64,000 bases of DNA from an uncultured Candidatus Saccharibacteria bacterium (GCA_964626635.1 CAZVFY010000001.1:112498-176497); one strand, 5' to 3'; shown: positions 1-36,735, numbered from the stretch's first letter. The notes: generated by a model from the sequence alone, not told the origin. A program made the numbers and translations.

Positions 1-78
1 TCCAGTCACCGCTGCCAAGATCGAAACCTTGCCGGCAGTGCGGGCGTAGTGTGGAAGCTCTTTTTCGTTGTACTTCAT
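1..78 (-). CDS. hypothetical protein, N-terminal fragment only (gene continues beyond window start)
   Basis: ATG at 76-78 on the minus strand opens the frame MKYNEKELPHYARTAGKVSILAAVTG, which runs off the window edge. No recognisable family. Confidence 0.2.
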   Translation of the reverse strand, partial: MKYNEKELPHYARTAGKVSILAAVTG

Positions 79-172
79 AAATGACTATATTGCTTATTGC
101 TACTACATTGTACCGATCGGGTGCACGTGTTGCGTGCGGTTATACACACGAAAATCGTACAGTTGTTGATAA

Positions 173-1417
173 CTATTCGTAACGAATTGCATCCAGTGGG
201 TTCAAAGTCGACGCGCGTCGCGCTGGGAAAATTCCTGTCAAATACCCCACTCCGGCTGAAAATATTGCGATAAACAATAAGAAATCAAGCGGAAAGGCAA
301 ATAACGACACCGCCTGCCCCCCGTACCGACTAGCCACAAAGTTCAAAAATATATTGACTGCCCCACCCAGTATCACCCCCATCAAAATTCCAGTAATCCC
401 TCCCAAAAATCCTACTACTACTGATTCCGATACAAATAGGTACTTCACATCGTTAGGTGAGGCGCCAATGGTGCGCATAATACCAATCTCTTTAGTCCGC
501 TCCAGTAGGGTCACGGTCATGGTGTTAAACATGCCGATGGCAGACACAATTAATGCAATACCACCGAACACCGCCAATACCACCTGAATCCCTTGAAAAA
601 TTTGTGAGGCTTGCTCAACCGTTTTGGACAGAGCCGTCACACGGTAACCCTCTTCAACCAAGCGTTCTTCGACAAGGGGCAAGTTTTCGTTATCAATTAC
701 ATTCACCTGGATACGCTCAAATTCCTCAATACCAACGTACTGGCGCAGTTCAGGTAACATCATCAGCGCGTTGAGCACCCCCTCTTCTTTTGTAATACCT
801 CGCACCACGAACTCTTTGTCGATGGGGATCTCAGTCACATTGTCCGACCCATCTCCCGCTGGCACTAACAGGCGGAATGAGATCCGTTCCCCAATAAATG
901 ACTTAGCGTCTTCGTCCGCCACGCCAAATAGCTTGAGTACAGCCGGTGAAATCATCACGCTATTGGTGTCAGAAATGTCTTCTTCGAGGAACGTCTCACC
1001 GATACTAGGGGTGATACCAGCGTATCGTAGATACGCTGGTTCAGCCCCCTGCAAGAACAAATTACCAGTCAGCCCTTTGTACGTGACGAGCGCCGCGAAT
1101 CGCGCTAGCGGCGCCGCATCAACCACCGCTTCGTCGTCTTCGAATCGTTGCACGGTCTCTTGCGTCAGCGCGAGACCCTGCGCCCCAGTTGACGACACGC
1201 CGAGTGACAAAAGCGAGTCACCAAACACAATTTGTTCGAGAATAATCTGCTGTAACCCGAACCCTAATCCCACCAGAATCACTACTGCCCCAGTCCCGAC
1301 CCCCATACCCAAAATTGTCAGCCAAGTTCGCAACGGGTTGGTTTTAAACATTCTGGTGGATAACTGTGCTAAATCTTGAACTCTCATAAATAATATATTA
1401 GCCCTTATAGCTGACAT
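173..1417 (-). CDS. ABC transporter permease, FtsX/MacB family (4 TM, large extracytoplasmic domain between TM1 and TM2)
   Basis: Six-frame ORF of 414 aa. N-terminal FKTNPLRTWLTILGMGVGTGAVV motif typical of FtsX-like permeases, a ~200-aa extracytoplasmic domain, and three C-terminal TM helices. Overlaps the upstream ATPase gene by 20 nt; an alternative ATG at 1387 (MRVQDL) is possible. Confidence 0.8.
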   Translation of the reverse strand: MSAIRANILFMRVQDLAQLSTRMFKTNPLRTWLTILGMGVGTGAVVILVGLGFGLQQIILEQIVFGDSLLSLGVSSTGAQGLALTQETVQRFEDDEAVVDAAPLARFAALVTYKGLTGNLFLQGAEPAYLRYAGITPSIGETFLEEDISDTNSVMISPAVLKLFGVADEDAKSFIGERISFRLLVPAGDGSDNVTEIPIDKEFVVRGITKEEGVLNALMMLPELRQYVGIEEFERIQVNVIDNENLPLVEERLVEEGYRVTALSKTVEQASQIFQGIQVVLAVFGGIALIVSAIGMFNTMTVTLLERTKEIGIMRTIGASPNDVKYLFVSESVVVGFLGGITGILMGVILGGAVNIFLNFVASRYGGQAVSLFAFPLDFLLFIAIFSAGVGYLTGIFPARRASTLNPLDAIRYE

Positions 1418-2720
1418 CTACACCTTGAGCAATGATCTTCTCGAAATGTCTGGTCATATCGTCAGCCTCGCGCTCGCTAAGCCCCAAACCACCCGTGCGA
1501 ATTCCGCGCATGAGGCGGTTATTAAGCTCGAGCTCGTCACTCACACCGGTAACACGATCAGCAATTAAATCAGTCATATTGCTTTCCTGCTGTTTTGATA
1601 GCTTGATCCGGTGACCGTTAGCTAAGTGGTCACGCATACGCTCGGCCAGTTTGTCTTGGCTAAAGAAAATGTTGTCATTGTCTTTACGGGCTCTAAATCG
1701 ACGCACATCGTCGGCATCCTTGATCATCTTAGTCGCAATGCTGGCCATGCGACGCGCTTCGCGCTCGTCGACCTCGACCCCACCACGCTCTAACGGTTTG
1801 ACCAAGCTTTTGATAAATGCCTCACGTTCAATTCGGCCGGTGATGAACAAACCAATCGCGTGTTCAAGACGGCCGAGTTGTGTAAAGGTGTAGTCTTGCG
1901 TTAAATAGTTGACCATACTCTTGATTCGCCAAGTTTCAACTGAGTCGTACGGAAATAAACGAGCGAGCTGTTCTAACTCGGTGACAATCGTCTCGCCTTC
2001 ACGAACAGGCTTGATTTGTTTACGTTGCGGATTGACAACCTCGCGCAACACTTTACCGTCTTTGAGGTAATAGACGCGGTGCGCGTAGCTGAGGTGCGCC
2101 GCATTGTGAGACACCATAATGATCGTGCGGCGGTCAAACGTATTGATCTCATCGATCTTATCCATCACCTGCTGAGTGGATACTGAGTCGAGGTTGCCGG
2201 TCGGCTCATCGGCCAAGAGAATTTTGGGGTCGTTCACCATACTGCGCGACACCGAGACACGCTGCTGTTGCCCACCCGAGAGCATGGCTGGGATCTTGTG
2301 CGAGACGTGCCCTACCCCAAACCGATCCAATAGTGCTTGCGCGCGGCGATCGCGCTTTTGTTTGTCCGCATCACAAAAGATCATTGGCAGTGCCACATTA
2401 TCGAGCACAGACAGCGACATGATCAAGTTAAACTGCTGGAAAATAATTCCCATCATGTAGCGCTGAAAGTACACGCGCTCGGCCGGGGGATAGGCGTACA
2501 CATCGTCCCCTTTGACCAACAACGTCCCCTCGCCAGGCGGCAGACTACCCTGGATGGAATACATGAGGGTTGATTTACCGCAGCCAGACGGACCAAAGAG
2601 AATGATGTACTCACCCTCAAAAATATCCGTATTGACGCCAGACAATGCCTTGAATTCGTTGCTTTTGCCTTGGTTATAGATGATCGACAGATCACGCGCG
2701 ACGATGAGAGGTTTAGCCAT
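1398..2720 (-). CDS. ABC transporter ATP-binding protein (MacB/LolD-like) with an unusual ~200-aa helical C-terminal extension
   Basis: Walker A (GPSGCGKST), ABC signature ([13 protein letters not shown]) and Walker B ([12 protein letters not shown]). The ATG is confirmed at 2718-2720. The C-terminal ~210 aa beyond the ATPase fold has no match I recognise and carries two similar [15 protein letters not shown] / [16 protein letters not shown] segments. Confidence 0.85.
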
Positions 2721-2723
2721 ACG

Positions 2724-4241
2724 TTAGCCGCCAATATTATTAACCCAGCCAAACGTCGACTCGAAGTTCTCAATGATAAGGTCAATAATGTTTTTTTCCT
2801 GAATTGGCGTAAACAATACGAACTTTTCAGATTCGACAATATTACCAGCTTCATCGGTACAATTAAGCCAAAACGTGTACACTGTCGCCGGAGCAAATTC
2901 AACGATCACTTCGACATGCGCGGTGTTAAATTCTAACACCTCTTTCTCTATTTCAATTTGCTCGCCCGCACCGCTGGCCCCCTCTTCATAAGTCATGACA
3001 CAGCTGGCAGGCTCATCAGTGATCCATTCAACAATTGTTTGGATGCGCGACTCGCTGCCAGGGAAGAGCGTTGATTCGTTGGTGACGTTTGAGATTACCG
3101 GTGGAGCGGTGTCGCGCACTGTAATAAACTGGATAGGTTGCGAGCGGACCCGGTCTCCCCCACTGTTTTCAGCTGTCACGAACGCGACGTAGCGCGTTCC
3201 CAGGGTCAGGTCGGCTAGGCGCATTTGGTGAGTGGTGGCAAGGGTCGGTCGGCCGACTGAGTTTTGCCCACCAGTGGTTTGGTCTTGGTACTCGACCAAC
3301 GCCTTGGTTGGGACATTAGTGTCCCACGCCAGGGTGGCGGCATTTTCTTCGACCTTAACGACACGGAGATTGCGGATTTCGGGGGCGGTAGCCTTGGTGG
3401 TGAACTCGAATACTCGTGATTCACCGGTAATATTAAATTCGTCTGTTGAGAGCACGCGGAACGAATAGTCAGTAAACGCCGATAGGCCGATCAACCGTAC
3501 CGAGTGTTCGGTCGTGTTGGGGCCAGTCGAACGTTGTGAGAACTCAAAATTGGTTCCATCAAAAGCACTGGATTCAGAAAATACTACCTCACTACTGGCC
3601 GCACGATCAGTCGTCCAGCTAATCACTGCAGCATTAGTTTCTGGTTCGACCGTTGGCGGTCCGACAATGGTCAGGTCTTCGGTGATACCTTCGACTGCCT
3701 TGGCAGTCTCGTTTATAATCTCTTGTAATTGCTGGACGTCTTGGATTTCTTTGATGTCTTCGATCAATTCTTGTACGTCTACCACCTCGTCCACTTGTCC
3801 TGGTCCGACATCGACACCTTCCCCGTCACCGGCCGCTTGACCAGCACCCTCTCCATCGCCTGTCTGCGGCGTGCCGCCAGTGGTGACACGGTAGTCCGCC
3901 GAGATCCCCTGGTTGCCGTCTTCGTCAGACGAGACGACCCGAAAATAATACGTGCGTCCAGGTTCGAGATTATCCAGCGTCACGGAATGTTCCGTGCGGT
4001 CAGCTGTCGGAATACGAGCGATCCCGAGATCGGGTTGCAGACTATAGTTAACTGCCGAATCGGCGTCTTCGTCCGTGGTCCAGGTCACCGTGACCGAGTC
4101 TTCAGAGACATCAACGATCTGTAAATCAGTGATTTCGGGAGCCTCGCGATCACTTGACTGCGCCGTCAGCGTTGATGGATACGACCAAAGCACGAGCGCG
4201 CACATGCACAAAAATGAACTAAGCGAGAACACCCCCTTCAT
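2724..4241 (-). CDS. secreted protein with multiple fibronectin type III-like domains and an acidic linker
   Basis: The six-frame ORF is 2724..4535, but the signal peptide begins at the internal ATG 4239-4241 (MKGVFSLSSFLCMCALVLWSYPSTLTAQS). This start leaves a 46-nt gap after the giant gene stop. Repeated TVTWTT...YYFRV and AVISWTT...YSFRV FN3-like motifs. Confidence 0.6.
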   Translation of the reverse strand: MKGVFSLSSFLCMCALVLWSYPSTLTAQSSDREAPEITDLQIVDVSEDSVTVTWTTDEDADSAVNYSLQPDLGIARIPTADRTEHSVTLDNLEPGRTYYFRVVSSDEDGNQGISADYRVTTGGTPQTGDGEGAGQAAGDGEGVDVGPGQVDEVVDVQELIEDIKEIQDVQQLQEIINETAKAVEGITEDLTIVGPPTVEPETNAAVISWTTDRAASSEVVFSESSAFDGTNFEFSQRSTGPNTTEHSVRLIGLSAFTDYSFRVLSTDEFNITGESRVFEFTTKATAPEIRNLRVVKVEENAATLAWDTNVPTKALVEYQDQTTGGQNSVGRPTLATTHQMRLADLTLGTRYVAFVTAENSGGDRVRSQPIQFITVRDTAPPVISNVTNESTLFPGSESRIQTIVEWITDEPASCVMTYEEGASGAGEQIEIEKEVLEFNTAHVEVIVEFAPATVYTFWLNCTDEAGNIVESEKFVLFTPIQEKNIIDLIIENFESTFGWVNNIGG

Positions 4242-4287
4242 ATGTATTATGCTAGCACGCGCCACCCTTCCGAACGGCGCTAGTCCA

Positions 4288-7200
4288 CTAATCCGGGACC
4301 GCGGTAAAGGTATTGACGCCCGTGTGTGGGTTCGAGGCAGTACCAAATGGTACTTCGATACCCCAGAAGATTTGATCGGTGGTCGGCGGGTCAGTTGCCA
4401 CTGGTTTAGGCAGATCAACCTCGACATTAGTCCCAAGCACCGATAGCGTCGCACACCCCAGACACGCAGCATAATTGAACGAGCTGGTCGCAAATCGTTG
4501 CTGCCCGGCCGGGATGACTGAGGCAATACCGTCACTCATGTCTGTTCCAGCGACCTGCACGTCAATGTTCTCGTTTCCAACATTGATCAGATCGACATTG
4601 GGGTTATTGGTGCCCGTATCCTGAGCCACGTCGACCGTACCGTAGGCGATAGCATTCTGTACGTCGAGCGCGCGTAGTGTCAGCAGTTCGACCCCCATTG
4701 AAGAGCGCAGATCTGCCGCGCCGCTCTGGTCACTGACTTCGATGAATGCAAACCACTCTTCCCCGGCATCAAAGTCAGTTGGGTCGGCATGGTACACCAT
4801 CGGTATTGTACACTGCAAACTACATGAATTACCCGTACACGCGGTAAAGCTACACGTACTGGTTGCAATGTAACAATCATTATCATTCGGCGTACAGTTA
4901 CTGTTGGCGGTGGTTTTGTAGAACGTAGTCGTAGCGCTCGCCAGATCAGCCACCCCGTTAAAGTCAGTGACCGTAGTCGACGCAGTGATCAGGGTAGTAG
5001 TACCAGCCGTCAACTGGATATCTAGTCCGTCATTGAGCGAGACTTCTGAGATCACCGGATCAAACGCGAGCGTTAGTTCAGGCAGGTTATTGTACGCGTC
5101 CAGTTCGTCCCCGCTGTCTGTCACGCGGAAACAATACGCGTCATTCGCAGCGCTGGTTGTCAGGGTGAGCGCGTATTCCAGTTCGGTGTAACGATTTTGT
5201 CCCAAATTGAGATTGTTAGAGCGATTGCCTGTATTCGACACAATTTCTCCGGCCGAGAAGTCACCCGCATCAGTGACCAAATGATCAGAGGTAGCGTCCC
5301 CATTAGATACCTCAGTAGAATTAGCCATACAAATAGCACTGGTGCCACAAGAAGCGACCGTTGGCACCGGTGCGTAATTAGTCGCTGGAACGGCTTCACA
5401 GGTGGCAGCAGTGAGTTTCGGTGCAAACTCGATCTCGAAATTCTGGTTCTCGATTGGCAATCCGGTGTTTTCGATCCCCACTCGGAGTCGCGCCACCGAC
5501 CCAAAGCTAAAGCCGCCAGTTGGAGTATTTTGATCGCCGGCCCAGGTAGCGCCACCGTCTAGTTGCTCGTCACCTAGATATACCGTTGGGAGCGCGCCGA
5601 TACGCGGGTACGCTACGTACGAATCCCACCCGCCGTGTTGGAACCAGTAGGTAAAGCCGATGCCGCCGCTACTGTACGTTGTATCTATTGCTGATAGATC
5701 TGCTATTAATGTGCCATTAATGTCATACATCGCTACCTGCATCGCCCCATCGACACGCCAATCAATTACAAACTCATACCAACCTGTAGTAAAGATGGCC
5801 GAAGATGATTCTAAGATTGTACCGCTCGCCTCAGTATCGACCACGTCACGGACGAGTGATATGCGATCAACACCTGGCTGCTGTACACAAAGACCATAAT
5901 TATTATTATCTTGCATTTGTGATTGTACCGCAAATAACGTACAGACTTCATCGTTTGCTCCAGCCGAAGTATCAATGTACTGCATGTAGCGAATCGTCTG
6001 CCCTGCGCTGACGGTCACACCGTCCCGCGCAATACCGTCAGTCGCCCGCTGCTGTTCATTACCGTCCGTATCCAATCCCAGCGCGCCTCCAAACGCGAAG
6101 CTGTTACCAATATTGAACAAACTAATATCACCATCGTACGGCGTTAAGCCACTGCTCTCAAAATCTTCGACCGTATCAAACACCTGATCCGCATCGCTAC
6201 TGCTGTTGGCAGCGAGATTACCGTAGTACAAGTAAAATTCAGTCACGTCATCATTAAGGGCTGGCGCCTGGAACCAGACCGTTGCGTCCACCCCACTTTG
6301 GAAGCGTTCAATCCAGTGTGGGGTGATACTGACTCCGTCTGCTAACGTCACGCGAACATCATCAAAGTCAGTCTGCATATCAGCATCGTAAATCACTGGC
6401 AACTTAACCGCAGTAGTCGCGACGGCAGTCGGATTATTGTTGACAACACGGATACGCTGCCGCTGCCCCCAATCATCGTCGTACCAGGTACCAGTAGGGG
6501 CACCCTCACCCCCATCGTCGTTACGCCAGCGGTAGTTAGATTGCTCGATCAAGAGACATTCACTATCATCCCAGCGCACAGAACTACAAAGATCAGTACC
6601 GTCAATATCAAATGCTTCACCCCACAGATCGCCGATCGCGCCGGTAAAATTCCATGAATTTGTGGTAGTTGCGCTGAGATTGACGTTTACTCCGCCACTG
6701 AATCCACCCGCGTTAAACGCGGTGTCAGTCACGACCAAGTTCGGGTTAGAGTTAATCGTGATCGGTGTCAGGGTGATCAATGACGCACCATCACTCGTCT
6801 GCGTGAACGATCCGTTACTGAGTGATGTCACTCCGACTCCTAACAGCAGCTGTAGTCCGTCGCTGTCGATGTTTGTGATGTCATAGAATTCGGCGTTGAG
6901 GGTACCGGCTTGGGCAATCAAGGCGTACTGCCCAGTCCCCTGATTTGTGATCGTGGTAGTCGCGCCAGTCACCCCGAGAATATTGAGTACGCCACCATCC
7001 AGTATCACACTACTACTGCTCGCGATGCGAACCGTCACCGGTCGGTCAGAGATGTTGGCGCCGTCAAAGTCAGTGGCCGCACTCCAATGCTCGGTCGTGG
7101 TCGCGATGGTGTAGGAACCATAGATATTGAGTGCGCCATCGCTTCCGGCATGATCTTGAGAATACAGAGATGATGAGAGTGGGACGCTTGTGGTTGCAGC

Positions 7201-10200
7201 ACTACTGTTCCAGAAGGAAATATTACTGTTTGCACCGATCTGCAATGTGCCATACGTTTCTGTCGCAGTTGTTTTGACGCCGACTTCGTATCTATTGGCG
7301 CCGTCGAGAACTAAAGTGGTATCGGTCCAGGTAGTGGCAGCGCCGCCGACCGTATTACTGAACACTCCGCCAACGTAAACGCTACTATCCGGCGCCACCG
7401 TAAAACCGCCTGCGGTTTGCAAACTGAAATTGTTGGTCGTGGTGGCAGACCCGACTAATGTCCACGCTCCCGAACCAGCAACTACGAGGTTATTGAAGTC
7501 ATTGTCATTTCCTGTGTCAATAAACAGGCCGCTCGTTGCACCATTGAGGAGAATCGTTCCGCCATTATTATTGAACGTACCGCCAGACACATCGAATGAC
7601 TGTCCCACTGCTAGCGTGCCTGAGCCAGAGGTAAATACACCATTAGTAAGGGTCAGGCTACCTAGCAGTGTCGCGTCCGAGTCGGTTAACGTATAATCAC
7701 CGCCCGCCGCGCTGATCTGCACAGTACCGGCATCATCACCGCCAAGGGTTAGCTCGTTCCCACCAGCAGTATCAGTCAACAAGAGCGTACCGCCATTGTG
7801 GGCAATCGTGCTGCTGGCAATAAAGTTACCCGCCACCTCGAGCGTACCACTTGGGAGAGTGACTAATCCGCTGCTGATAATAATGTCATCAGTGGTGGTG
7901 GAATTTGTATCAAGAAACGCCCAGCTCCCCGATCCTGTAAACTCCACGCGATTAGCTGCAGAACCTCCAAACTGTATGTGTTGATTGGCCTCAATACTAT
8001 CGAGCACAAGCGCTCCAGCATTTGCATTAAAGCTTCCACCAGTGTTGACAAATGATCCCGATACCGTTGTGGTAGCCGCTGGTAAAGTTAATGTCCCACG
8101 GTTAATTATCAGATCCTGATTGATGTCACCCTCGGAATCAATTATGGTCCAACTACCAAGCCCATCGAGTACGAGCGAATGGAAACCAGAGTCATTAGTA
8201 TCAATCGTCCGTCCAGTCGCGCTACTGGTGAACGTAGTGGTCGATGTTTCAGCATCGAAGGTTGCTGCACTGTCAGACAGCAAGCTGCCGCCGATACTGT
8301 ATGCGTGCGTTCCACCGTCGAACGTGGCGCCAGCAAATAGTTCGAGTGATCCGCTGTGGGTTGCGATGCTGCCGCCCGGCAGTATCACATCGCCACCCGG
8401 AGCAAAAATCTTGTCATTCCAAATAATTAGACCCGTATCAGCCGCCAGTGTCAGGGTGTCAACCGCACCCGTTGTTGCGGTAAACGGAATATCCGAGTCA
8501 TTGCTACTATCGTAGACACTCATGGCTTCAATAGTCATTGGATCACTGCTCTCGTGACGGACGATCACGTGTGATTCGTATAGGTCTAGATTGCCGATCA
8601 GTGAAATTGGGTCTTTGGTCACGGTTGCTGCCTCGGTTCCGGCATCATTGATATAGACGGTTAGCGTATCACTCGGCCCGAATCCAATCCCCGGGAACGT
8701 GTACTCACCAGTCGTAGCATTACACGTAGTAGACGCAAACGTCAGACCTTGGATGCTTAAGCGAATGTTCGGTGTACTACCATTACATACGTTTGACACG
8801 GTAGTGCGATCTGCTTCGTACACTCGCCCAGTCACATCAATAATTGCAGCTGAATCTTCCCACACGATCGAGCCTGGGTCCCCACCAGCATCTGGGTCGG
8901 CGTCGAACGCTTCTCCCACCAAGTTTCCGAAGGCATTCACGAATCGCCACGAACTGACCGGTGTCCCCGTTGCCTTAACATTGACTGCGGCCCCTCCAGA
9001 AGCATTTGAGAATCCATTACCGGTAAAGTTACGCGCCTGGTTCGCATTGATGACACTGGCGCCGACTGTGATTCCTGATGCGCCAATCGTCGGACTGACA
9101 AAATCCCCGTGTGACAGCTCAATGATAGTTGGAGTACCAGCCAGCACCAATCCGTCGCTCGTCACGTCGCGCACCACGTAATGGTGCAAGTCAACTGTCG
9201 TCGTACCACCCAGCGTGAGATCAAAGGTGCCAGTGCCACCCAGCACCCCAATAGTTGTGCTCGCGGTCGAAGTGCCCGCCGCTGTCAGCGCACCGCCGGT
9301 ATACAAGACTGATCCACCGTTTTCGACCAACACATTGGCAATACGCTCGGTCGCTAGCGATGCACCATCCCAGTCCCGGGCATAGCTCCAGTGATCGTTG
9401 AAACTATCACTCCGCAAATCACCATAAATATGCAAATCACCGATCACTTGATCATGATCCATTGAGTACAACGAGCTGCCGGGCTCGGTCGTAATGGCCG
9501 CGTAATCAGAATTCCAGAAGCGCGGCTGCGTCGAAGACGAGACGCGAACTGTCGCGTAGTCGTCTGCGTCCAGCTTGTCGTTCACTACATACGCGCCACC
9601 ACCGAACAAATGGAGGGTTGATCCGGTCCAGGTGGTTAGTGCATTATCAAGCTGATTCCTGAACTCACCGCCGACAGCTAGTTGCTCCGCACTGTTAACC
9701 GTCACACTACCGCTCAGTAGCCGAGTGTCGTTAGTGGACGTCGCTGATTCGCTAAAGACAAAGTCACCTGCCCCAGCAATATCCAGGTCATAAAAGGCTG
9801 AGTCACCAGCATTGATCGCCACGGTACCCGTCGCATTTAGTAATTCGACCAATCCACCGTTCGCGATAAACTGCCCGTCATTAGTCCAACCGCCAAAGAC
9901 GTTAATTGGAGTGACGGCACTGGCGACCAGCGTTCCATTGGTGCCGATTACCAGGTCTTGGTTGACACCAAGAGTTGGATTGTTGGTATCGAGTCGCAGT
10001 GTCGAAGAACCAGTCTGTCCAATCTGCAGATCACCGAGCACTTGCAAACCAGTCGCCGGCGCGGTCGCGAGTGTGGTGCTACCGACGCCAGCGTCGATCT
10101 GCAGGTCATAGTAGGCCGTTTGGGTTACGTTTGGTGTGACTCCGCTATAACGGATGGTAGCCGTGTCTTCAAGGAAGGTGCCTTGCTCATCAAATACAGT

Positions 10201-13200
10201 ACCACTGCCAGTTAGATTCCAGCTGGTCGACCCCGCATCCAAGAAGTGGCCGCTGGCAATACGCAACTGATTGTTAATCGTCGTGACGACGCTCCCAGTC
10301 GCGGGGGTGGTGACTCCCGCTACTGCGCCACTACCAAATGTTAGGTTATAGAATGACCATGGGGTTGCGCTGCCGAAAGTATTGTCACTCCCAAGCGTCA
10401 CCGTGCCGTCAATCATATCTACCACCCCGGCCCCACTAAGGTCGCCATTTTCAACCGTTAGATCACTGACCCCAGTCAGTGTGCCGCTATTGACGGCGAC
10501 ATCGGTGTCCACTATTAGTGGGGTTTGCAGTGCATACATGCCGCTGCCAGCAAAGATTACGTCATGTATCGCAATCGTCGAGCTGCCAACCGCGCTAATA
10601 GAAACGGGATTGCTGGCACCAAATGTGACCGTACTAGAAGCACCACTGTACACCCCACCCGCATCTACATAAAACGAGCCGCCAACCGCTAGCCCATCAG
10701 TCGTGGTCGATAGATACGTAGCACTTTGGCCAATCCGGAATGACCCATCAGCAATGGTGCTACCTGCACCAGACAGCGTGACCGGTCCACCCGGGGTGAA
10801 TGTCTTGCCGTCAAACACCGCCAATCCATTGCCTGCTAACACCGTCAAACTATCAGGACTGGTGCCGATTACAAATGGTACGTCACTGTCATCAGTGTTA
10901 TCGAACAGATTCATATCGCTAATGGTTAGCGGGTCGCTGTCTTCATGACGTACGACTACGTGATCCTGGTACAGGTTCATATTGCGGATGGCGTTGGCAA
11001 CCGAGATCCGTTCTGGACGCAACGCTATTTGGATGGTGTGGGTTTCGTCGCCGCCACCTATACTAGAAATCATAACGTCACCGGTCGACCCAACAACGGC
11101 TTGTTGGCGATTGAGTACTGTGAGGTTACGCTGCGTTGTGCCGACTTGCAAATTTCGCACACGAATTTGCCAAGGGAGCGATGGTACATCGACGCTCAAT
11201 TCTGGCAACACGAACCAGGCAGCAATAATTTCGGCACCACCTGAAACAGTGGTCACACTTGGAGCCGCCGGAGTCGAATCATCGACTCGCTTGACCCAAG
11301 CGGCCGGCGCATCAACGACGACGTCTGTATCGACATTGTCATATGAGCCGATCCAGTAGGAGTGTTCCTGGGTGTTAACACCATTACTAATGAAGTCATA
11401 TGCAGCCGGTTCACTGGCAGCATTCGTCACGATGCGGTACCACGCACCCGTAAAGATATCGTTCTGCGTCGTATCAGCCAGGGTCGAGATCGCTGTCCAA
11501 CCAGCTGGCGGAGTAATTTCCGGATCATCCTCTTTCCCGATGATTGCAATCAGCACATCACCGTCTTGGGTGGCCGGACGAGTCAACGCGAGCGTACCGC
11601 CGGCGACCACGTTTTCTGCTCCAGACGCTTCGCCAGTCAAGGTAATAGTTTCAAAGGTGTCACCAGTTGCGCCGATTGGCGTCTTGGTGATGGCGGCTGC
11701 AGTGGCCGTGCCGCTGGCAGTTGCACCGGTGGCCGCGCGCATAGCAAACGTGATCACGTGCGGGTCACGACCACCATTGACACCAACTGCTTCGAGCGGA
11801 TCGGTGGCTCCAGCGACCGCTAACCGTTGCGATACTACATTAAAGTTGTTATTATCAGCGTTAGGTACATACTCTGTGTGCGTCACGAAATCTGGACTAG
11901 TTGGATAATCGACAGCGGCATCGTTATCAACAAACCAAGACGACAATACTAAACCTCCCGCCGCAGTCGTCGTGACGCTCGGCACGGCCGGTGTTTGATC
12001 ATCAACTAATTGTGTTACCCCACTACTGACATCGAGTGGGTTGGTAGTATCGACGTTAACAAGTGCACCAATCCAATACTGATACCGCTCATTGTTATCA
12101 ACCGTAGTAAATGTGTAGTTGGCCGGCTCGGCACTAGCGTCGCTGACAACACGATACCAAACACCAGTATAAATATCGTCGTCTGCCCCAGTACCAGCCC
12201 CAGCGATTTGGGTCCAACCGGCCGGCGGCGTGATCGCCGGGTCGTCGTCTTTGCTGATGATAGCTACAAGCACTGAACCGTCAATTGCTTCCGGTCGCGT
12301 AACGGTAAAGTCGGGTTGCGATACGCCAATACCGGTTACCTCCGACATGATTTCTGCCTGCACAAAACTGTTGTTCGGCGCTGTACTCTCGAGATACGTG
12401 GCCAGTTTTGGCTCACCGGTGTAACTGATGCCCGTGACAGTATACGACCCATCTAGCGGGCTACATGGAGCCCGGTACGTAGTGATGCCATCGACTACCA
12501 CTGTGACAACCTCGGTGACACCGTTACATACTGGGGCACTCATCGGCGTAACGGTATCAGCCTGGAATATCGTACCAGAGACAGCAATATTAAATGAACT
12601 ATCAGACCACTGAATGGCACCTGGATCACCATCATCATTATCAAATGACTCACCGTAGCGGTTGCCAGTACCAGTTTTGAATATCCAGAAGGCTGCGGGG
12701 ATGTCGTCAAGTGTGACATTGTGTGGTGCACCGGTGACAGTCGAGAACGCAATGTGGTTCAATTCACGCGATGGATCGGCTTCGATGGTCGCAGCATCAA
12801 TGGTCAAGGCAGTGCCCGTTGCAATCGCAAACTCGATGTCGGTAAAAGTGCCGAGCGTCGCACCGTCACGCAACTGCACCCCAGCCACATCGGTATTGGT
12901 CACTTCGAGATAGCGAGCATCGATAGTGCTGCCGCTCAGGACGGTGCTGTAGTTACCCGCCAAGGCGTCGACGGTGGAGCTCGCCGTCGCCGAACCAAGC
13001 GCAGACAGAGCCGATGTACTGGCGATGCGCACGACACCGCCGTTCGCCACCCTTACTTGCGCGGCTCTCTCACTTCCACCAGTTAGATCAGTACCGTCGA
13101 AATCTGTCGCGTAGCTCCAGTGTTCTGTACCACTAGTACGGTCGTACTGGCCATAGATGCGCAGTAGGCCATCGGTGCCACCGTAGTCAGGCATGTAAAT

Positions 13201-16200
13201 CGATGAGCTGTCAGCGATCGTTGAAGTCGCGATCGTTGAATTCCAAATGACAACATCGCTATCTTCCGACACACTAACATTGGCATAATCATCACCCGAG
13301 TCTAGTCGGTCAGTTACCACGTAGTCTCCGCCTGTCAGCACCAGTGTGCTGTCGGTCCAGGTCGTGGCCGCCGCCGCGAATCGGTTTTCAAATACGCCAG
13401 CCACGGTCAACGTCGTGTTCGGTTGTTGGGTAAAGCTCGCGCCAGTTTGTAATACTGCGCGATTCTCTACAGTGTTCGTCGCCACTGTCCAACCGCCGCC
13501 GACGCCATCAAACACTAGGTTGTAGAATGGCGCTGCACCAAACGCGACCACTTCGCCAGTGTCGGTACTGTTGAAAGTGGTAGTCGCGTTGTTCGCGTTA
13601 TACGAACCGCCAGTGTTTAGCGCTGACCCGCCAATGTTGAAGTTGTTGGTTGGTGCAACTAACTGCACGCCGTTGATCGTCACATCACCCAATGCGTTGG
13701 TGTTGACTTCATTAAGTCGGAACACCTGACTATCAGCGCTGAGACTCTGTGAGTCAGCAGTGTAGAACGTACTTGGGCTGTTTTGGTTGGCGTACTCAGC
13801 GGCGTACCAGTCGGCGCTGCGACTGACGCTCGAGAAGCGCACCTCGTCGAGTAATCCGTCGAAATAGTTACCAGTTCGCCAACGCCCAATTAATACCCCG
13901 TAGCCGCTGACATCTTGGGTGTTGAGCGATCGCCCAATAGTATCTTCGTTGATGGTATTTACGTAGGTTCGTACGTCACTGCCGTCATAATCAAGCGCCA
14001 CATGTTGCCACTCGCCAAAAGGCCTGGCAGCGAACGTATTGTCGCCATCCCAATGCTGCGCGCGCCATTGATTCGTATCGTTTACTCGTACTGTGTAGTC
14101 TTGCAGAGTCTGCGAGCCACCAAGATTCCACAGTCCACCTGCGTCCGACCAAGACTCGACGTTAGACCAGGCGCTGACTGACTTGGTATTGGCGCCTTCC
14201 AGTCCTGTGATCATGGCGGTGTTCAAATCAATAAAGTCACCGTTGTCACTATTCTCAAAATCTTGTGCGCTACCGAGCAGACCATTCGTACGCGTTGGCA
14301 CATCGACGGCTGCACCGGCGCCACCCTGCCCGTCGTAGCCATTGCCCGTACTATCAATAAATTCACCGGCCGTACCGTCACCAGTTTCCTCGAGGTGGAA
14401 GACTGCTTCGTAGCCGTTACTCCACACATTATTGCGACCGTACATGCTGCTCGGCGCCGGAGCGCTCGCGGCGCCGTTATTATGGTACAGATAAAACACT
14501 GTATCTGTAGTCGCCAAAAGCGTATCGGCACGGAAATGCAGCTCGCCAGTTTCGGCGTCGGTATCAATAGACACCAACTCGACTGGCATTTGCACATTAT
14601 CACTGTTCGTAACGCGGACATCAGCTCCGTCGCTAGCGACGTTACTCCAGAAGTCAGCCCCCAGATCACTGAGGTCGACGTAGACTGGGAAACTAGTCAA
14701 GGTTGCGTTTAGATTACTGGCGCTAATAGTAAGCTGCTGACGGCGCGTCCACGCAGCGTCAAACCAGTCGAATGATCCGCCAGCCCCAAACGTCACATCG
14801 TTAAATGCAGAGCCACCGGTAATGATATTAATGCTTTCGTCGCTGTAGAATCGCACCGAGCCATCGTTGTGAGCAAATGATCCGCCTGTGACATTCATCG
14901 TGTCGCCAATCGCCAGCGTACCAGTTGGCATCGTGACTGCGCCATTTTGGATCGCGAATTGCCCACTAGTCGTGGCGTTCGCATCAGTAACGCTCCACGC
15001 GCCGCTACCCGCGAATGTCACATCATTCAAAATGTTAGTAAACGGAGTCCCGCCGAGCGTGATGGTTTCGGTGCCAGCTCCATTAAACAGTACGGTACCG
15101 TTGTTATGCATGAACGAGGCATTGTTAGTAAAGCTACCACCAACAGTCAGCGTTCCCGTCGGGAGTGCAACCGTCCCGGTCGCCACGATAAAATCATCGG
15201 CGACTACGAGCGACGGTTCGGTAAAGACCGGTGTGGTACTCGCATCGTTGAGGCGTAGCGTATAGAACGCCGAACCACCTCCGGCAATATTATGGGTCGC
15301 TTCGTCAACCACAACATCTGGCTGGAAGCTCTCGGCGACTCCTGCAGAGTAAAAGATACTCGGTGTGTTTTGGTTGGTGTATTCCGCTTCGATCCAGGCA
15401 GTGTTGCGAGTGGTGGTGGCAATACGCAATTCATCAATGAGCGCATCAAAGTACGTTGTGCCGCCACCAAGGCGACCGACCTCGAAGCCATCGTTATTTG
15501 AGGGGCTGTTAACCGTTTGGTTCGCAACATCTCGCAAAATAGCGTTTTGGTAATAGCGATTTGAGCTGCCGCTGACTGTCGTACCGACAAAAAAGAATTG
15601 ATTCCAGCTGGTAGTGTTACGCGGGTTGATATTGAATCCGTCAGCATCACCAAAGTCAAAGTCACCATCGCCGCCACCAGTACCGCCACCGCTCCACGGT
15701 CGGAGATTGATGGTATTTGGATTGCCACCAGTGCCAAACTGGTAGTACGCGCCGCCATCAGCGTTATCCATCAAATACCACCCAGAAGTCACCAAAGCAT
15801 CGCCGGCGGTCCAGTCAAAGTCAGGGTTATTGAGGTACCCGTTCAGGCTTTCTAAATTAAGACCAACACCGAGTTGTCCGCTAGTTGTCGCCAGCGCGTT
15901 GTCGGTCACAACCAGATCACGGGCATTGCTCGTTGCGTCAGCTACCACATTACCTGTCGCACTGACATCATCGTTAAAGTGATAGACCGCTTCGTACTGG
16001 GCCCAAACCGCCTGGCTACCAAATTGCGCAGTAGGCGCGTAGGCGGTCGCGGCGGCATTAGCAAAGTACACGTAGAACGACGTGTCAGTCGTTGCGCTCA
16101 CGCTGTCAGCGAGGAAGTGTAATTCGCCAGTATCGTCTGCTCCGTCAAACTCGACTAGGTCATGTGGTAATTCTGTCTGCCCATCACCGCTGGTGATGCG

Positions 16201-19200
16201 GATATCGCGACCATCGCTCGCCACGTCAGTCCAGAACGCAGCCCCTAACGTACTGAGGTCGAGATAGATCGGAAAATTAGTTAGGGTGCTGTCGATCTCG
16301 TCGGCATCAATCACGACTGGGACCCTACGACCAAAATCCTCGTCCGAGTACCAGTCGCTCGAGCCTGGGATGATTGGTGGGTACACTCGGTCGTCTTCGA
16401 CAATCTCGACGATAGACGTACCAGCGTTAAACGACCCGTTATTAATCCAATCCCCACCAACCGAGATGGTGTTACCAGTCCCGCCCACCAAGGTATCGTT
16501 GTTGCCGATCACCACATCGTACGCAGCCACATCAGTCACCGCTGTCACTGTTAAATTGGCGCCGTCGATAGTGACGTTACCGATGTTTTGGGTGCTAGGA
16601 CTGTTGTCAGTCCAGGTGTGCGAACCGGTTCCGTTAAACGTGGTGGTGCCGGTACCCTGCCAGTTACCAGTCGCTCCGGTGAGCACTGACCCAGCGACCG
16701 CAATGTCACTCTCACCCCGATCAAACACCCCGGAATTGACAGACAAGTCACCCGAGAGATCAAGCGCTACATCAACCGTGATGGTAGCCGTAGCGCCAGT
16801 ACTGATGTTGAGGGTGTGGAAATCTAGCGGGATTTCGGTACTAGTGATCGTCTCGGCTGTGCTGGCTGCCGTAAAGGTAATGGTCGATGTGTCGGTTGAA
16901 CTAGTCGCGTTGTTGTCGTACGAACCGCTGAGAGTAAAACTATTGTTGTCGAGCTCGATGGTTCCGTCATTAATAAAGTCATGCGTGCTCACACTCACCG
17001 CGGTCGACGTCGCCGGCACGTAGCGCTGGCCCGGACCAACGTACAGATTGGCGTCGGTACATGTACCGCTACCGCAGACAGCCAAGTTATTGAGGCCATC
17101 AACCGCGAACAAGATATCTTCGTCGTCAGTGTTGTCGTACAGACCTAGTAGTTGGTTGGTAATGGTGCCTTGTTCGTCAGCTACGAATGATACGTGCTGC
17201 TCGTACAGCGCCACACCGGTGATATCACCCAGTCCGTCATAGACGAAACTGGTTACAGCTTCGTCCTGTTCGTCTGCCCCATCTACCCACACAGTCACAA
17301 TCTGCCCGTTAAATGCGGTTACGTTTGGCAATGTCCAGGTGCCGTTACTGACCACCCCGACACCACTGACCGGCACGCCATTTACCGCCGCGCGGACTGT
17401 CCCAGTAGTCACATTGGTAGTGCGGTCGTACTCCTGCAAGCTACCAGACATATTGACTCCCTCACTCCACTCTAGCTGCCAGTCATCTAAAGTTGGGCAG
17501 CTACTGCCAACGCACTCGAGAGTTGCGAGCGCGCGGATCGTGTCGTAGGTGTTAATGTCAACGCCACTAAGATCAATCGGACTAGTGGTAAAGCCCGTTG
17601 CATTGCCAGGGATTTGACTATCTGGGACGAGTGCATAGACACCCTCGCTCACGCGATATTGTAACTGAATGCGCACCACACTGGATGCTGGGGTGGAGGC
17701 GTTCCAGGCAAAATTCGCAAACTTTGGTCCAGCCCCATCCGAAAAGATAATGTCTTCGCCGGCAAACGTCCCGCTGAGTCCCCCACTATCCTGTCGCCGT
17801 AAGATTCCCGTGTCACTCTCGAACGCAAGTAAACTGACAGTCTCATCACCACCGTGCGCATCAGCACGGCTACCGACCTCAATCACACTAGCAAAGAGGT
17901 TGGTGTTGGACTGGGTACCCGATAGATCCTTGAGCGCAAAGCTACCATCCCCACCACCCTCAGAGTTTTGTTGCAGGAGCGTAAAGCCTGGCATTGTCGT
18001 AAAACCACTGAGATTGAAATTATGACCGCCATTACTAAATGAGTCTTCAACATCATTGAAGGCTCGACCGGTATCGAAGCGGGTGCCATTATTCGTACCA
18101 CTCCCTTGATCCATCAAAACAAAATCAACATCTTCTCCGCTCGAGTGCGGCAAGTCGGACATACTCTTGGCTAAGGACAGGCGAATCGAGCCCCCGGTCC
18201 ATTCATTACTGCGATTACCTGCGTCTAGGTGGGCTGATACCCACGTACTATCATTGACAGTCACGATGGTCGCAAACGCTAAGGGGTTGGTGCCGAAACT
18301 CGTACTGATCGGCACGGTTAATCCGGTACCATTATCGTATGGTTGTCGGATCAAGTCAGTCGATGCCAGACTTTCTGTTCCAGCCAGCAATGTAATGCCG
18401 CCAGCACCGTCATCAAGCTCCCACTCACCGGCTTCTAGCACCAAGTAATCTACAACAGTCGTACCACTGAAGCCGTCGTGATCGTCAACCTTGATTTCAA
18501 AGCCGGTGGCAGTTTTATTGCGAATGCGAGGCGTGCGGCCGTCACCTTGACCCGTCACGTTGTATTCCGGTGATGCCACGACAACCATATTGTCATAAGT
18601 GCGACTGGTCGTGATTGTTTCCCAAGCATTATTGATCAAGGTCACGGTGCCGTATTCACCAATCTCGTTTGTCAGGCTGACAGCTCCACTGGTGGTGGCA
18701 ACGGTGCCATTGAAGAAGCCCTGACTAAACTGATCCTGCGTAGTCTGGAACCAGGTCGACTCGGTGGTGGCTGTGTCAATAGTGAACGAATCAGGCTCGG
18801 ACCATGGCGACCACGCATTACCCCCGGCTGGATCCTTGGCGCGAGTGCGCCACCAGTACGTAACACCATTAGCGAATGGCGTACCGCTCGGTGTGTCAAA
18901 GGTGACACGTTCGCTCGAGATAAATGGTGACAGATCACTGCCGTTTGACTCATTGACAAACTGTGTGCTCACACCTGAGTTATACGTGGTAGTCGCACCG
19001 GCAAAATCAAAGTCCGTACTAAAAGAGATTTCGTATTCTAGGTCGTCGCCTTGCGGATCGGTAGACACAAAATCAAACGTTGGTAGCGTGTCTGCAGTCT
19101 TCTGATTATCGAACGGATCACCCTGTATCGGCACTTCAACCCGTTGCCCCCAACGCACTTGCCAGTTATTGAGGGTGACACTACTGCCGCTGAGATTGGC

Positions 19201-28258: not shown

Positions 28259-28755
28259 GAATATACTTGATTACTTTTGTTTGAACGCATTCGGGAAGCT
28301 GTCTTTGGTTTGCTACTACCGACCTTGAGGGTGACCTTTGATTTCTCACTCGCTTTAAGGAGAGGCAGTGTGAGCACTAACACACCGTACTTAATCTTGG
28401 CATCCGCTTCATCGATGTTGACTGACTCAGGTAAAATGATACGGCGATAAAATTCGCCCCACTCGCACTCTTCAGCCACAAACGCACCAGAAACTTTTTT
28501 ACGCGGGAAAGCTATGTGTTCTGGGCGGGTGCGACGACCCTCAATTAGCACGATGTCGGCGTCACCCTCAATGGATACATGCACGTCTTCCATATCAGCA
28601 CCAGCACACTGTGCGTACACGACGATCATCCGTTCTGTTTGGTAGACATCAACGTGTAGTTGAGCAATCTTGTCCGCAGCGGTTTCTTCTGAGTCGGATA
28701 GAAGACCATCATTTTCACGCACCCCCTTACCTTTTAATCGCTGCAGAAAGGACAT
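28246..28755 (-). CDS. Hsp20/alpha-crystallin family small heat shock protein
   Basis: Alpha-crystallin domain pattern DVYQTERMIVVYAQCAGADMEDVHVSIEGD...GAFVAEECEWGEFYRRIILPESVNIDEADAKIKYGVLVLTLP, ending with the typical GVL.LTLP motif. Confidence 0.8.
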   Translation of the reverse strand: MSFLQRLKGKGVRENDGLLSDSEETAADKIAQLHVDVYQTERMIVVYAQCAGADMEDVHVSIEGDADIVLIEGRRTRPEHIAFPRKKVSGAFVAEECEWGEFYRRIILPESVNIDEADAKIKYGVLVLTLPLLKASEKSKVTLKVGSSKPKTASRMRSNKSNQVYSCIS

Positions 28756-28812
28756 ATATCAATAGTATACAAAGTTTAGTTCTGTCAATGCGTGGTTTAC
28801 CCACACAAGCGA

Positions 28813-30681: not shown

Positions 30682-30695
30682 ATGTACACCTTACC

Positions 30696-32196: not shown

Positions 32197-32244
32197 ATTG
32201 CACTAGTGTAGCAGCCGCAGAGGATTAAATATTTCTGTATACAC

Positions 32245-32278
32245 AAAACCACCCAGGCCGGATGGTCTGGGTGGTTTT
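32245..32278 (-). terminator. bidirectional Rho-independent terminator after the WxL-like gene
   Basis: AAAA CCACCCAG gccggatggt CTGGGTGG TTTT: perfect 8-bp GC-rich stem with a 10-nt loop, flanked by an A-tract and a T-tract, immediately 3' of the minus-strand CDS ending at 32328. Confidence 0.75.
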
Positions 32279-36695: not shown

Positions 36696-36735
36696 ACATT
36701 GTATCGTACCATTTTCGAAGTACGTGCCGGTGCCA

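What the first reader, a model, noticed from the sequence alone, without database searches (positions are those of the whole stretch)
173..4241. MacB/FtsX-type ABC exporter and an FN3 secreted protein packed directly downstream of the giant gene
Four co-oriented genes run consecutively: giant gene, FN3 protein, ABC ATPase and FtsX-like permease, with gaps of 46 nt, 3 nt and a 20-nt overlap. This suggests one transcription unit. MacB/FtsEX-type transporters act by mechanotransmission on extracytoplasmic partners, as FtsEX does with wall hydrolases and MacB with exported substrates. A dedicated pair next to a giant surface fibre could process, release or anchor it, or handle a peptide made with it. 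The FN3 protein has no membrane anchor and may be a secreted partner.
Basis: inference. Interest (0 to 1): 0.5.

Follow-up and report, generated by a model that had tools for sequence, protein, structure and literature searches.

The report
FN3 protein plus MacB-type ABC triad
Next to a 7,440-residue surface-protein gene of an ultrasmall (Patescibacteria/CPR) bacterium lies a conserved three-gene set (a secreted FN3-repeat protein, an ABC ATPase with an unusual extra domain, and a MacB/FtsX-type permease); this trio recurs in distant relatives without the giant gene, so the FN3 protein, not the giant one, looks like the transporter's partner.

Summary
Four co-oriented minus-strand genes run giant (4288-26610), FN3 protein (2724-4241), ABC ATPase (1398-2720) and MacB_PCD/FtsX permease (173-1387/1417). 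The gaps are 46 nt, 3 nt, and either a 20-nt overlap or, more likely, a 10-nt gap.

The four-gene order holds in every close relative with enough flank: 51/51 giant, 54/54 ATPase, 44/44 permease. Close relatives are Kaiserbacteria-like Patescibacteria. In more distant members of the ATPase family the giant gene is absent.

What recurs is a triad. In 5 of 8 sampled distant loci, an FN3-repeat secreted protein lies upstream of the ATPase-permease pair (661 to 2,405 aa; one copy is cut by its contig end). All these proteins end in the same last FN3 domain plus a C-terminal helix (TP..IIDLIIENFE..FGW). Two loci carry the pair alone and one carries the ATPase alone.

The ATPase has a rare 215-aa C-terminal domain, a tandem pair of helical repeats with no solved structural relative.

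Best reading: a new subfamily of type VII (MacB/FtsEX/LolCDE-like) mechanotransducing ABC systems, with the FN3 protein as its extracytoplasmic partner. The link to the giant gene is specific to this clade. The work it performs is unknown. New variant of a known kind; moderate interest.

The parts
4288..26610 (-). Giant surface-protein gene (7440 aa). It has one N-terminal hydrophobic anchor or signal segment, and DUF2341, Laminin_G_3 and Pentaxin domains. It is a clade-specific upstream neighbour of the triad, not part of the conserved unit.
   Evidence: ORF. Precomputed Pfam. Single hydrophobic segment at residues 13-31. Its C-terminus lies directly upstream of the FN3 gene in 51/51 close relatives. 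It is absent from all 8 distant loci.
4242..4287 (-). 46-nt spacer between the giant gene and the FN3 gene.
   Evidence: No promoter- or terminator-like site. Fold z-score -0.15. The equivalent spacer in 65 relatives has median 20 nt, range -35 to 64.
2724..4241 (-). Secreted FN3-repeat protein (505 aa). Layout: signal peptide, FN3, acidic and helical linker (about residues 126-195), three FN3 domains, C-terminal helix.
   Evidence: Pfam fn3 and Pur_ac_phosph_N. Only an N-terminal hydrophobic segment. 62-77% identical in close relatives. Homologous FN3 proteins lie upstream of the ATPase in L093, L096, L097, L098 and L180.
2727..3116 (-). Conserved C-terminal module of the FN3 protein: the last FN3 domain plus the terminal helix (residues 376-505). 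The tail, residues 476-505 (2727-2816), reads LFTPIQEKNIIDLIIENFESTFGWVNNIGG.
   Evidence: Alignment A5 across 7 loci has invariant P6, I8, V11, Q26, W31, T33, H67, V79, Y80, D88, G91, N92, S96, T103, F118 and F122 (A5 first-sequence numbering). The tail is the most conserved 25-residue block in the clade, at 0.98. The motif sits at the very C-terminus in all 6 lineages. Moderately amphipathic: hydrophobic moment 0.43.
2046..2720 (-). ABC ATPase, nucleotide-binding domain (residues 1-225), of the MacB/LolD/FtsE type.
   Evidence: Pfam ABC_tran E 4e-31. Best NCBIfam hits are DarD, FtsE, LolD and MacB, all below their cut-offs. Signature, Walker B, D-loop and H-loop residues are invariant in alignment A1. 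83-96% identical among close relatives.
1401..2045 (-). C-terminal extension of the ATPase (residues 226-440): two tandem helical repeats of about 85 aa, each ending in a GG(V/L)G(L/F)...A motif.
173..1387 (-). MacB-type permease (404 aa from ATG 1387; the longest ORF starts at 1417). Four transmembrane helices with an extracytoplasmic domain of about 220 aa between TM1 and TM2.
   Evidence: Pfam MacB_PCD plus FtsX. Hydropathy segments at 23-50, 269-295, 317-341 and 362-380. The closest solved sequence is B. subtilis YtrF (E 2e-33, membrane part), then MacB and LolF/C/E. N-terminus conserved with L095.
1..78 (-). Start of the next co-oriented gene (631 aa on the source contig). It has an N-terminal transmembrane segment, and its C-terminal region of about 300 aa is homologous to about 250 aa at the giant protein's C-terminus.
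   Evidence: Gene on L001-L005. 31% identity over 302 aligned columns to giant residues 7190-7435. Present after the permease in 37/37 close relatives. The 94-nt spacer is typical for the clade (median 96).

Best explanation
Window 173-4241 encodes a self-contained three-gene system of the type VII ABC class, the MacB/FtsEX/LolCDE fold.

Shown or directly implied:
- Two copies of the 440-aa ATPase would power two copies of the four-helix permease, as in other systems of this class.
- The permease carries a large MacB-type extracytoplasmic domain.

Inferred:
- The secreted FN3-repeat protein encoded just upstream is the system's extracytoplasmic partner. It is exported by Sec through its N-terminal signal peptide.
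- It is then held at, or acted on by, the permease through its conserved C-terminal part: helical linker, three FN3 domains and a terminal amphipathic helix.
- ATP binding and hydrolysis in the cytoplasm would be passed through the permease as movement, as in FtsEX-EnvC, MacAB, LolCDE-LolA and YbbAP-TesA. Nothing would be carried across the membrane.
- The ATPase's extra cytoplasmic domain, a tandem helical repeat giving four copies per dimer, is most likely a regulatory or docking platform that couples the motor to a cytoplasmic signal or partner.

In the window's clade the triad sits inside a large island of surface-protein genes. The FN3 gene is tightly packed behind the giant gene, so in this lineage the FN3 stalk may also work with the giant protein. 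That link is not part of the conserved system.

Which mechanical job is done (holding, releasing or reshaping the FN3 protein or something bound to it) is not shown.
For: (1) Families and topology. ABC_tran, MacB_PCD plus FtsX, four transmembrane helices and a large loop. NBD catalytic motifs are invariant.

(2) The ATPase-permease pair is a conserved module. The permease follows the ATPase in 7 of 8 distant loci and in 44/44 close relatives.

(3) An FN3-repeat protein with a signal peptide lies upstream of the ATPase in the window clade and in L093, L096, L097, L098 and L180. The ATPases of the distant subfamilies are only 32-39% identical to the window's (alignment A1). The contexts are unrelated: a type IV pilus/T2SS-like operon, tRNA synthetases, GlmS, RNase Y/HU. 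The gene overlaps the ATPase start by 4 nt in L093 and L098.

(4) All these FN3 proteins share the last FN3 domain and a terminal helix motif, although they range from 505 to 2405 aa. The tail is the most conserved block of the protein.

(5) The reverse search, starting from the FN3 C-terminal module, found 250 metagenomic relatives. In the best 80, every locus with enough flank has the ATPase with its extension (54/54) and the permease (44/44) downstream.

(6) Conservation gradient. ATPase 84%, permease 80% and FN3 68%, against giant 43-52% and other neighbours 46-66%.

(7) Established knowledge: every characterised type VII ABC system works with a dedicated extracytoplasmic partner, often encoded nearby. 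A recent example is YbbAP-TesA (abstract of PMC12646458, listed).
Against: - No physical interaction was tested. A complex prediction could not be run, and the single-sequence model of the FN3 protein was unusable (pLDDT 43).
- Two lineages have the pair without any FN3-tail protein within 20 kb (L094, L095). One has the ATPase alone (L179). The FN3 protein is therefore not obligatory, or it can be encoded elsewhere.
- In close relatives the FN3-to-ATPase spacer can reach 1.2 kb, and the two longest spacers examined hold unrelated ORFs. L180 has a 223-aa ORF in between.
- The 8 distant loci were picked for long contigs, not at random, and their taxonomy was not established. L093 carries a secretin gene.
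- The FN3 protein has no enzymatic domain, so no output activity can be named.
Confidence: 0.55

Rival explanations
1. First reader's reading. The ABC pair is dedicated to the giant surface protein: it processes, releases or anchors the fibre, or exports a peptide made with it. The FN3 protein is an accessory.
For: - Giant, FN3, ATPase and permease keep the same order in all close relatives with enough flank: 51/51, 54/54, 44/44.
- The giant-to-FN3 spacer is short and stable: median 20 nt, range -35 to 64.
- The gene after the permease shares a C-terminal domain with the giant protein. Two proteins with that domain therefore flank the triad.
Against: - None of 8 distant loci of the same ATPase family has a DUF2341 giant gene.
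- The triad or pair occurs among housekeeping genes.
- There is no detectable similarity between the giant protein and the large FN3 proteins of other lineages.
- All close relatives belong to one clade (ATPase at least 81% identical), so their shared order may simply be inherited.
- MacB-type systems do not move proteins across the membrane (established knowledge).
Confidence: 0.15
2. The pair is a general envelope housekeeping machine or efflux pump. It could extract lipids, lipoproteins or toxic peptides from the membrane, as LolCDE, MacB, YbbAP or YtrEF may do. The FN3 gene is then only a frequent neighbour.
For: - The pair stands alone among translation and repair genes in L094 and L095.
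- Very high conservation of the ATPase (83-96% in the NBD) fits a core function.
- The closest solved permease is YtrF, followed by MacB and Lol proteins.
Against: - An FN3 protein with one specific C-terminal module recurs next to the pair in six lineages with otherwise unrelated contexts. This is hard to explain without a functional tie.
- No NCBIfam equivalog cut-off is reached for LolC/D/E, MacB or DarD.
- No membrane-fusion adaptor gene is nearby.
Confidence: 0.2
3. The pair is this lineage's FtsEX equivalent. It would control a cell-wall hydrolase during division, with the FN3 protein's helical linker playing the part of the EnvC/PcsB coiled coil.
For: - FtsE is among the best NCBIfam hits for the ATPase (E 7e-49).
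- The FN3 protein has a conserved helical linker, also present in L096 and L097.
- It follows the FtsEX paradigm of a secreted partner with a helical docking element.
Against: - FtsE scores 166 against a cut-off of 265. The FtsX models score 33-43 against cut-offs of 225-255.
- The permease has a 220-aa MacB_PCD domain rather than the small FtsX loop.
- No hydrolase, LytM, CHAP or NlpC/P60 domain occurs in the FN3 protein or its neighbours.
- Patescibacteria genomes are reported to carry genes annotated ftsE/ftsX (PMC11809585). Whether those differ from this family was not tested.
Confidence: 0.1

Closest known systems
Type VII ABC systems with a dedicated extracytoplasmic partner (FtsEX-EnvC/PcsB/CwlO/RipC, YbbAP-TesA)
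   Same: - A separate ATPase and a four-helix FtsX-fold permease.
- A secreted partner protein encoded next to the transporter genes here.
- The expected mode of action is mechanotransmission rather than transport across the membrane.
   Different: - The partner is an FN3-repeat protein with no hydrolase or activator domain.
- The permease loop is a full MacB_PCD domain, unlike FtsX.
- The ATPase carries a 215-aa tandem-repeat helical domain not found in FtsE or YbbA.
- NCBIfam FtsE and FtsX cut-offs are not reached.
MacB of the MacAB-TolC pump
   Same: MacB_PCD plus FtsX domain pair. MacB chains are among the best solved-structure matches (E 1e-18 to 8e-20).
   Different: - The ATPase is a separate gene rather than fused.
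- There is no MacA-like adaptor and no TolC.
- The host is expected to be a single-membrane Patescibacterium (inferred from source names).
- The PRK10535 score is far below its cut-off.
LolCDE / LolDF lipoprotein extractor
   Same: Permease size (about 400 aa) and full-length alignment to LolF, LolC and LolE. LolD-like ATPase.
   Different: - Scores are far below the equivalog cut-offs: 91 against 362, and 166 against 308.
- There is one permease gene.
- No LolA/B context was seen.
- The FN3 protein has no lipobox (sequence).
Bacillus subtilis YtrEF (ytrGABCDEF operon)
   Same: Closest solved permease sequence (9o9x_C, E 2e-33 over the membrane domain). Monoderm setting. A suspected cell-envelope role with no known transported substrate (PMC8060467 and PMC12772383 abstracts).
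   Different: - The match covers only residues 233-404.
- There are no ytrA/B/C/D/G-like neighbours.
- YtrE has no C-terminal extension, and no FN3 partner is described for it (own knowledge).

Membership tests
Type VII ABC transporter class (MacB/FtsX fold) | Permease with the FtsX-like C-terminal domain and four transmembrane helices | tested here: met
   PF02687 E 9e-18. Four hydropathy segments.
Type VII ABC transporter class (MacB/FtsX fold) | Large extracytoplasmic domain between TM1 and TM2 | tested here: met
   PF12704 MacB_PCD, residues 31-254, E 1e-16.
Type VII ABC transporter class (MacB/FtsX fold) | Cognate ABC ATPase with intact catalytic motifs, encoded adjacent | tested here: met
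   PF00005 E 4e-31. Signature, Walker B, D-loop and H-loop are invariant. The pair is adjacent in 7 of 8 distant loci and 44/44 close ones.
Type VII ABC transporter class (MacB/FtsX fold) | Mechanotransmission: work done outside the membrane without transmembrane transport | not testable with these tools
   Needs biochemistry or structures of nucleotide states.
MacAB-TolC efflux pump | ATPase fused to the permease, plus a MacA (HlyD-type) adaptor and a TolC duct | tested here: not met
   The genes are separate. No adaptor or outer-membrane factor domain appears in the window or in 8.6 kb downstream. NF007826 scores 164 and 84 against a cut-off of 966.
FtsEX | FtsE and FtsX equivalog scores | tested here: not met
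   TIGR02673 scores 166 against 264.85. FtsX models score 33-43 against 225-255.
FtsEX | Partner with a coiled coil plus a hydrolase or LytM-type activator domain | tested here: not met
   The FN3 protein has only FN3 domains and a helical linker. No such domain appears in neighbours.
LolCDE | LolC/E and LolD equivalog scores | tested here: not met
   TIGR02212 scores 91 against 362. TIGR02211 scores 166 against 308.
New triad family proposed here | ATPase with the C-terminal tandem helical repeat domain | tested here: met
New triad family proposed here | Upstream secreted FN3 protein ending in the conserved FN3 plus helix module (NF[EQ]..FGW) | tested here: met
   Window residues 376-505. The same module is found in L093, L096, L097, L098 and L180.
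New triad family proposed here | Physical contact between the FN3 module and the permease's outer domain | not testable with these tools
   No multimer prediction is available.

The most novel reading that the evidence does not exclude
The triad could be an inside-out mechanical device that is widespread in Patescibacteria.
- The novel four-copy helical platform under the ATPase dimer would sense a cytoplasmic cue.
- The permease would then move or release an FN3 stalk docked by its C-terminal helix.
- In the window's clade this stalk would in turn hold or deploy the 7,440-residue adhesin-like protein and its shorter paralogue.

That would make it an ATP-powered switch for attachment to the host cell. 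The placement of the triad between pilB- and pilC-like genes in one lineage (L093) would fit a link to surface-fibre machines.
Probability: 0.12. Interest if true: 0.8.

Novelty: new variant of a known kind. Interest (0 to 1): 0.5.

Why it matters
Patescibacteria make up a large share of bacterial diversity and are thought to live attached to host cells. How they build and control their surface is almost unknown.
- This triad is one of the most conserved gene sets in the locus: the ATPase NBD is 83-96% identical across the clade.
- It recurs in distant lineages.
- It combines a well-understood motor class with two undescribed parts: an FN3 partner with a signature C-terminal helix, and a new cytoplasmic domain.

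If the FN3 protein is the partner, the known range of type VII ABC outputs would extend beyond hydrolase activation, efflux and lipoprotein extraction. It would also give a concrete, testable handle on surface-protein handling in these organisms. I found no paper describing it.

Tried and rejected
- **Genome scan.** The scan of genome contigs with the full-length family alignment picked NBD motifs and returned only generic MacB-type ATPases (L013-L092).
- **Profile search.** A search with the C-terminal extension alone found only 2 proteins, because of the word index.
- **Second metagenome scan.** It worked, but its best 80 loci are all from the window's clade. The reverse test in distant lineages rests on only 5 loci.
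- **Split-gene idea.** I tested whether the giant gene is a split-off N-terminal part of the large FN3 proteins seen elsewhere. BLASTP found nothing at E 1e-3.
- **FN3 structure.** The single-sequence model had pLDDT 43 and was not used.
- **Other readings excluded.** PADLOC shows only generic ATPase or LolE-TM similarity. No Rfam family matches in 1-5000.
- **C-terminal sorting signal.** I considered a signal handled by a sortase-like enzyme. The tail is not hydrophobic enough for a membrane helix, and no such enzyme gene was seen nearby.
- **Prepilin or TadE-like nature of the 631-aa neighbour.** The only support is one sub-threshold Pfam hit (E 0.005), and there is no G/xxxxE cleavage motif.


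Full report
**What is in the window.** On the minus strand there are four consecutive genes:
- a 7,440-aa ORF (4288-26610)
- a 505-aa ORF from ATG 4241 (stop at 2724)
- a 440-aa ORF (2720-1398)
- a 414-aa ORF (1417-173)

Pfam assigns fn3/Pur_ac_phosph_N to the 505-aa protein. It assigns ABC_tran to residues 26-174 of the 440-aa protein, and MacB_PCD plus FtsX to the last protein.

NCBIfam places the ATPase nearest DarD, FtsE, LolD and MacB, and the permease nearest LolC/E and MacB. Every score is far below the curated cut-off, so none of these named families can be claimed.

Hydropathy gives the following:
- the permease has four membrane helices and a loop of about 220 aa after the first
- the ATPase has none
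- the FN3 protein has only an N-terminal signal-like segment (residues 1-21, then LTA/QS, no lipobox)

The permease N-terminus MRVQDLAQLSTRMFKT... is conserved in relatives, including the distant L095 (MRISDLAKLSTRMFKT...). ATG 1387 is therefore the likelier start, and the overlap becomes a 10-nt gap.

No promoter-like or terminator-like site falls in the short spacers. The 46-nt spacer folds no better than shuffles. Rfam finds nothing.

**Source and close relatives.** The exact ATPase occurs on JGI and Logan metagenome contigs of up to 210 kb. Its 120 best homologues are all 439-441 aa and 81-89% identical. The few that carry names are labelled Candidatus Kaiserbacteria, Nomurabacteria or Pacebacteria, which are Patescibacteria (CPR).

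In three such genomes the order is the same:
- giant gene (6,200-8,100 aa)
- FN3 protein (about 500 aa)
- ATPase (440 aa)
- permease (about 404 aa)
- then co-oriented genes of about 631, 316, 367, 375, 357 and 586 aa

A metagenome scan seeded with the FN3 C-terminal module gave 80 further loci of this clade. Wherever the flank was long enough, the neighbours were present:
- giant C-terminus directly upstream: 51/51
- ATPase with its extension: 54/54
- permease: 44/44
- 631-aa gene: 37/37

Spacers behave differently:

| Spacer | Median (nt) | Range (nt) |
|---|---|---|
| giant to FN3 | 20 | -35 to 64 |
| FN3 to ATPase | 166 | 1 to about 1,200 |
| ATPase to permease | 32 | -2 to 536 |
| permease to next gene | 96 | 56 to 835 |

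The two longest FN3-to-ATPase spacers I examined hold unrelated ORFs. The window's very tight packing is therefore at the compact end of the range. Obligatory co-translation of the FN3 and ABC genes is not conserved.

Per-gene identity to three relatives is as follows:
- ATPase 84%
- permease 80%
- FN3 68%
- giant C-terminal part 43-52%
- the other neighbours 46-66%

**The ATPase's extra domain.** Residues 226-440 have no Pfam match. A search of 1.84 billion cluster representatives with this part alone found only 91 clusters at E<=0.001. The full-length members are ABC ATPases of 420-470 aa with the match at about 226-436. The domain is rare and, at full length, appears only fused to this kind of NBD.

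Alignment shows two repeats of about 85 aa, each ending in a GG(V/L)G(L/F)...A motif. HHalign of the two halves gives 99.5% probability, E 6e-23.

An AlphaFold model built on 22 sequences is confident (pLDDT 83.5, pTM 0.76) and all-helical, with nine helices. It has no convincing solved relative:
- Foldseek finds nothing at E<=0.001.
- A profile search of PDB sequences finds nothing below E 0.3.

**Distant relatives decide the question.** A profile of distant family members returned many 420-496-aa ATPases. Representatives of their subfamilies are 32-39% identical to the window's ATPase. I fetched eight loci with long contigs.

| Locus | Arrangement |
|---|---|
| L093 | T2SSE, 122 aa, FN3 protein of 2,405 aa overlapping the ATPase start, ATPase, permease, T2SSF, pseudopilins, PilMNO, secretin |
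| L098 | GlmS, FN3 protein of 2,207 aa (4-nt overlap), ATPase, permease |
| L096 | FN3 protein of 661 aa, ATPase, permease, then tRNA synthetases |
| L097 | FN3 protein of at least 1,809 aa, 430-nt gap, ATPase, permease |
| L180 | RNase Y, HU, FN3 protein of 2,265 aa, 223-aa ORF, ATPase, permease |
| L094 | EF-P, then ATPase and a 642-aa permease, then CCA enzyme |
| L095 | UvrC, then ATPase, 95-aa ORF, permease, SecDF |
| L179 | ATPase alone beside conjugation-like genes, followed by 1.2 kb of stop-rich DNA |

None has a DUF2341 giant gene.

The upstream proteins are all FN3/Pur_ac_phosph_N repeat proteins. All complete copies have N-terminal signal peptides. All share with the window's protein the last FN3 domain and a terminal helix. 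Tail examples:
- window: LFTPIQEKNIIDLIIENFESTFGWVNNIGG
- L093: LTQKKKEGIIQIIINNFEQAFGWLKKI
- L096: LTPRPRESILDLMIKNFEEIFSFLKRV
- L097: LTPQQRKTIIQIMTSQFEQIFGWIKRL
- L098: LTPKKKKGVVQIIIENFEDAFGWFKNL
- L180: LTPKNEKTVFQTMIENFEQIFGWTQGF

These are shown. Within the clade this tail is the most conserved block of the protein (0.98). L096 and L097 also share the acidic and helical linker that precedes the last three FN3 domains. L094 and L095 have no such motif in 20 kb.

**Interpretation.** The conserved unit is a triad: a secreted FN3 protein with a signature C-terminal module, an ATPase with a new cytoplasmic domain, and a MacB-type permease.

All characterised systems with this permease fold (FtsEX, MacB, LolCDE, YbbAP) use ATP to do mechanical work on something outside the membrane, through a dedicated partner. 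This is established knowledge (see the abstracts listed, for example PMC12646458, PMC7668044 and PMC5985334).

The simplest reading is that the FN3 protein is that partner here. It would be docked or handled through its conserved C-terminal part. This step is inferred from gene neighbourhood and sequence conservation only.

The giant gene is a neighbour in one clade. Its stable, short spacer to the FN3 gene allows a lineage-specific functional tie. So does the presence of a giant-like C-terminal domain in the gene after the permease. Neither shows it. The large FN3 proteins elsewhere are not related to the giant protein.

**The wider locus.** The triad sits in an island with two paralogous sets of surface-protein genes on either side:
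- 377 aa and 374 aa, 42% identical
- WxLIP-like proteins with a C-terminal anchor, 27%
- Big_6 plus dockerin proteins, 39%
- cohesin plus Big_13 proteins, 35%

**Known or new.** The closest solved permease is B. subtilis YtrF (E 2e-33, membrane part only), followed by MacB and LolF/C/E. YtrEF's own role is unsettled. Literature searches for DUF2341, giant proteins, FtsX, MacB and FN3 in Patescibacteria found no description of this triad. One paper notes DUF2341 giants in Patescibacteria and cites an annotation linking DUF2341 to type IV pili-like systems (PMC11809585). I class the triad as a new variant of a known kind.

**Limits.**
- The eight distant loci were chosen for contig length, and their taxonomy is unverified. 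L093 has a secretin, which is unexpected for a single-membrane organism.
- No interaction, expression or phenotype data exist.
- The FN3 protein could not be modelled.

Noticed in passing
window 26726-33461 (-) and L002 12643-21107 (+): Two paralogous sets of surface-protein genes flank the triad: 377/374 aa (42% identical), WxLIP-like 359/316 aa with a C-terminal membrane anchor (27%), Big_6 plus dockerin 622/365 aa (39%), and cohesin plus Big_13 510/588 aa (35%). This looks like a duplicated cohesin-dockerin style surface cassette in a CPR genome.
   Followed up: partly
window 4291-5040 (-) and L002 13603-14535 (+): About 250 residues at the C-terminus of the giant protein (7190-7435) are homologous (31% identity over 302 aligned columns) to residues 321-621 of the 631-aa protein encoded right after the permease. 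No Pfam family matches. Two proteins sharing this end domain therefore bracket the triad.
   Followed up: partly
L002 16960-18084 and window 32328-33461 (-): The 374- and 377-aa paralogues end in ...TLTY(V/I)ATP(V/T)F, which resembles the C-terminal motif of WxL cell-wall-binding domains. They lie near WxLIP-like genes. No Pfam hit supports this, so it is only a lead.
   Followed up: no
window 33789-35506 (-): A UmuD-like (Peptidase_S24, 148 aa) and UmuC-like (IMS, 424 aa) translesion polymerase pair. A CAP-domain secreted protein lies next to it at 35538-36770.
   Followed up: no
L093 219-21311: In one distant lineage the triad is inserted between T2SSE (PilB-like) and T2SSF (PilC-like) genes of a pilus/T2SS-like operon. 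That operon continues with pseudopilins and PilMNO and ends with a secretin. A secretin is unexpected if the organism is a single-membrane Patescibacterium.
   Followed up: no
L118 10985-11404; L153 10637-11194: In some close relatives the FN3-to-ATPase spacer has grown to about 1.1-1.2 kb. It then holds an extra ORF: 139 aa and helix-turn-helix-like in L118, or 185 aa with a lipobox-like LTGC in L153.
   Followed up: partly
L179 3175-5754: A family ATPase (466 aa) stands alone next to TraC/TraG-like conjugation genes. It is followed by 1.2 kb of stop-rich DNA about the size of a permease gene, which may be a decayed permease.
   Followed up: partly
L094 11387-13315: In this lineage, which lacks the FN3 partner, the permease is 642 aa. 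It has an extra N-terminal region of about 240 aa with several hydrophobic segments.
   Followed up: no
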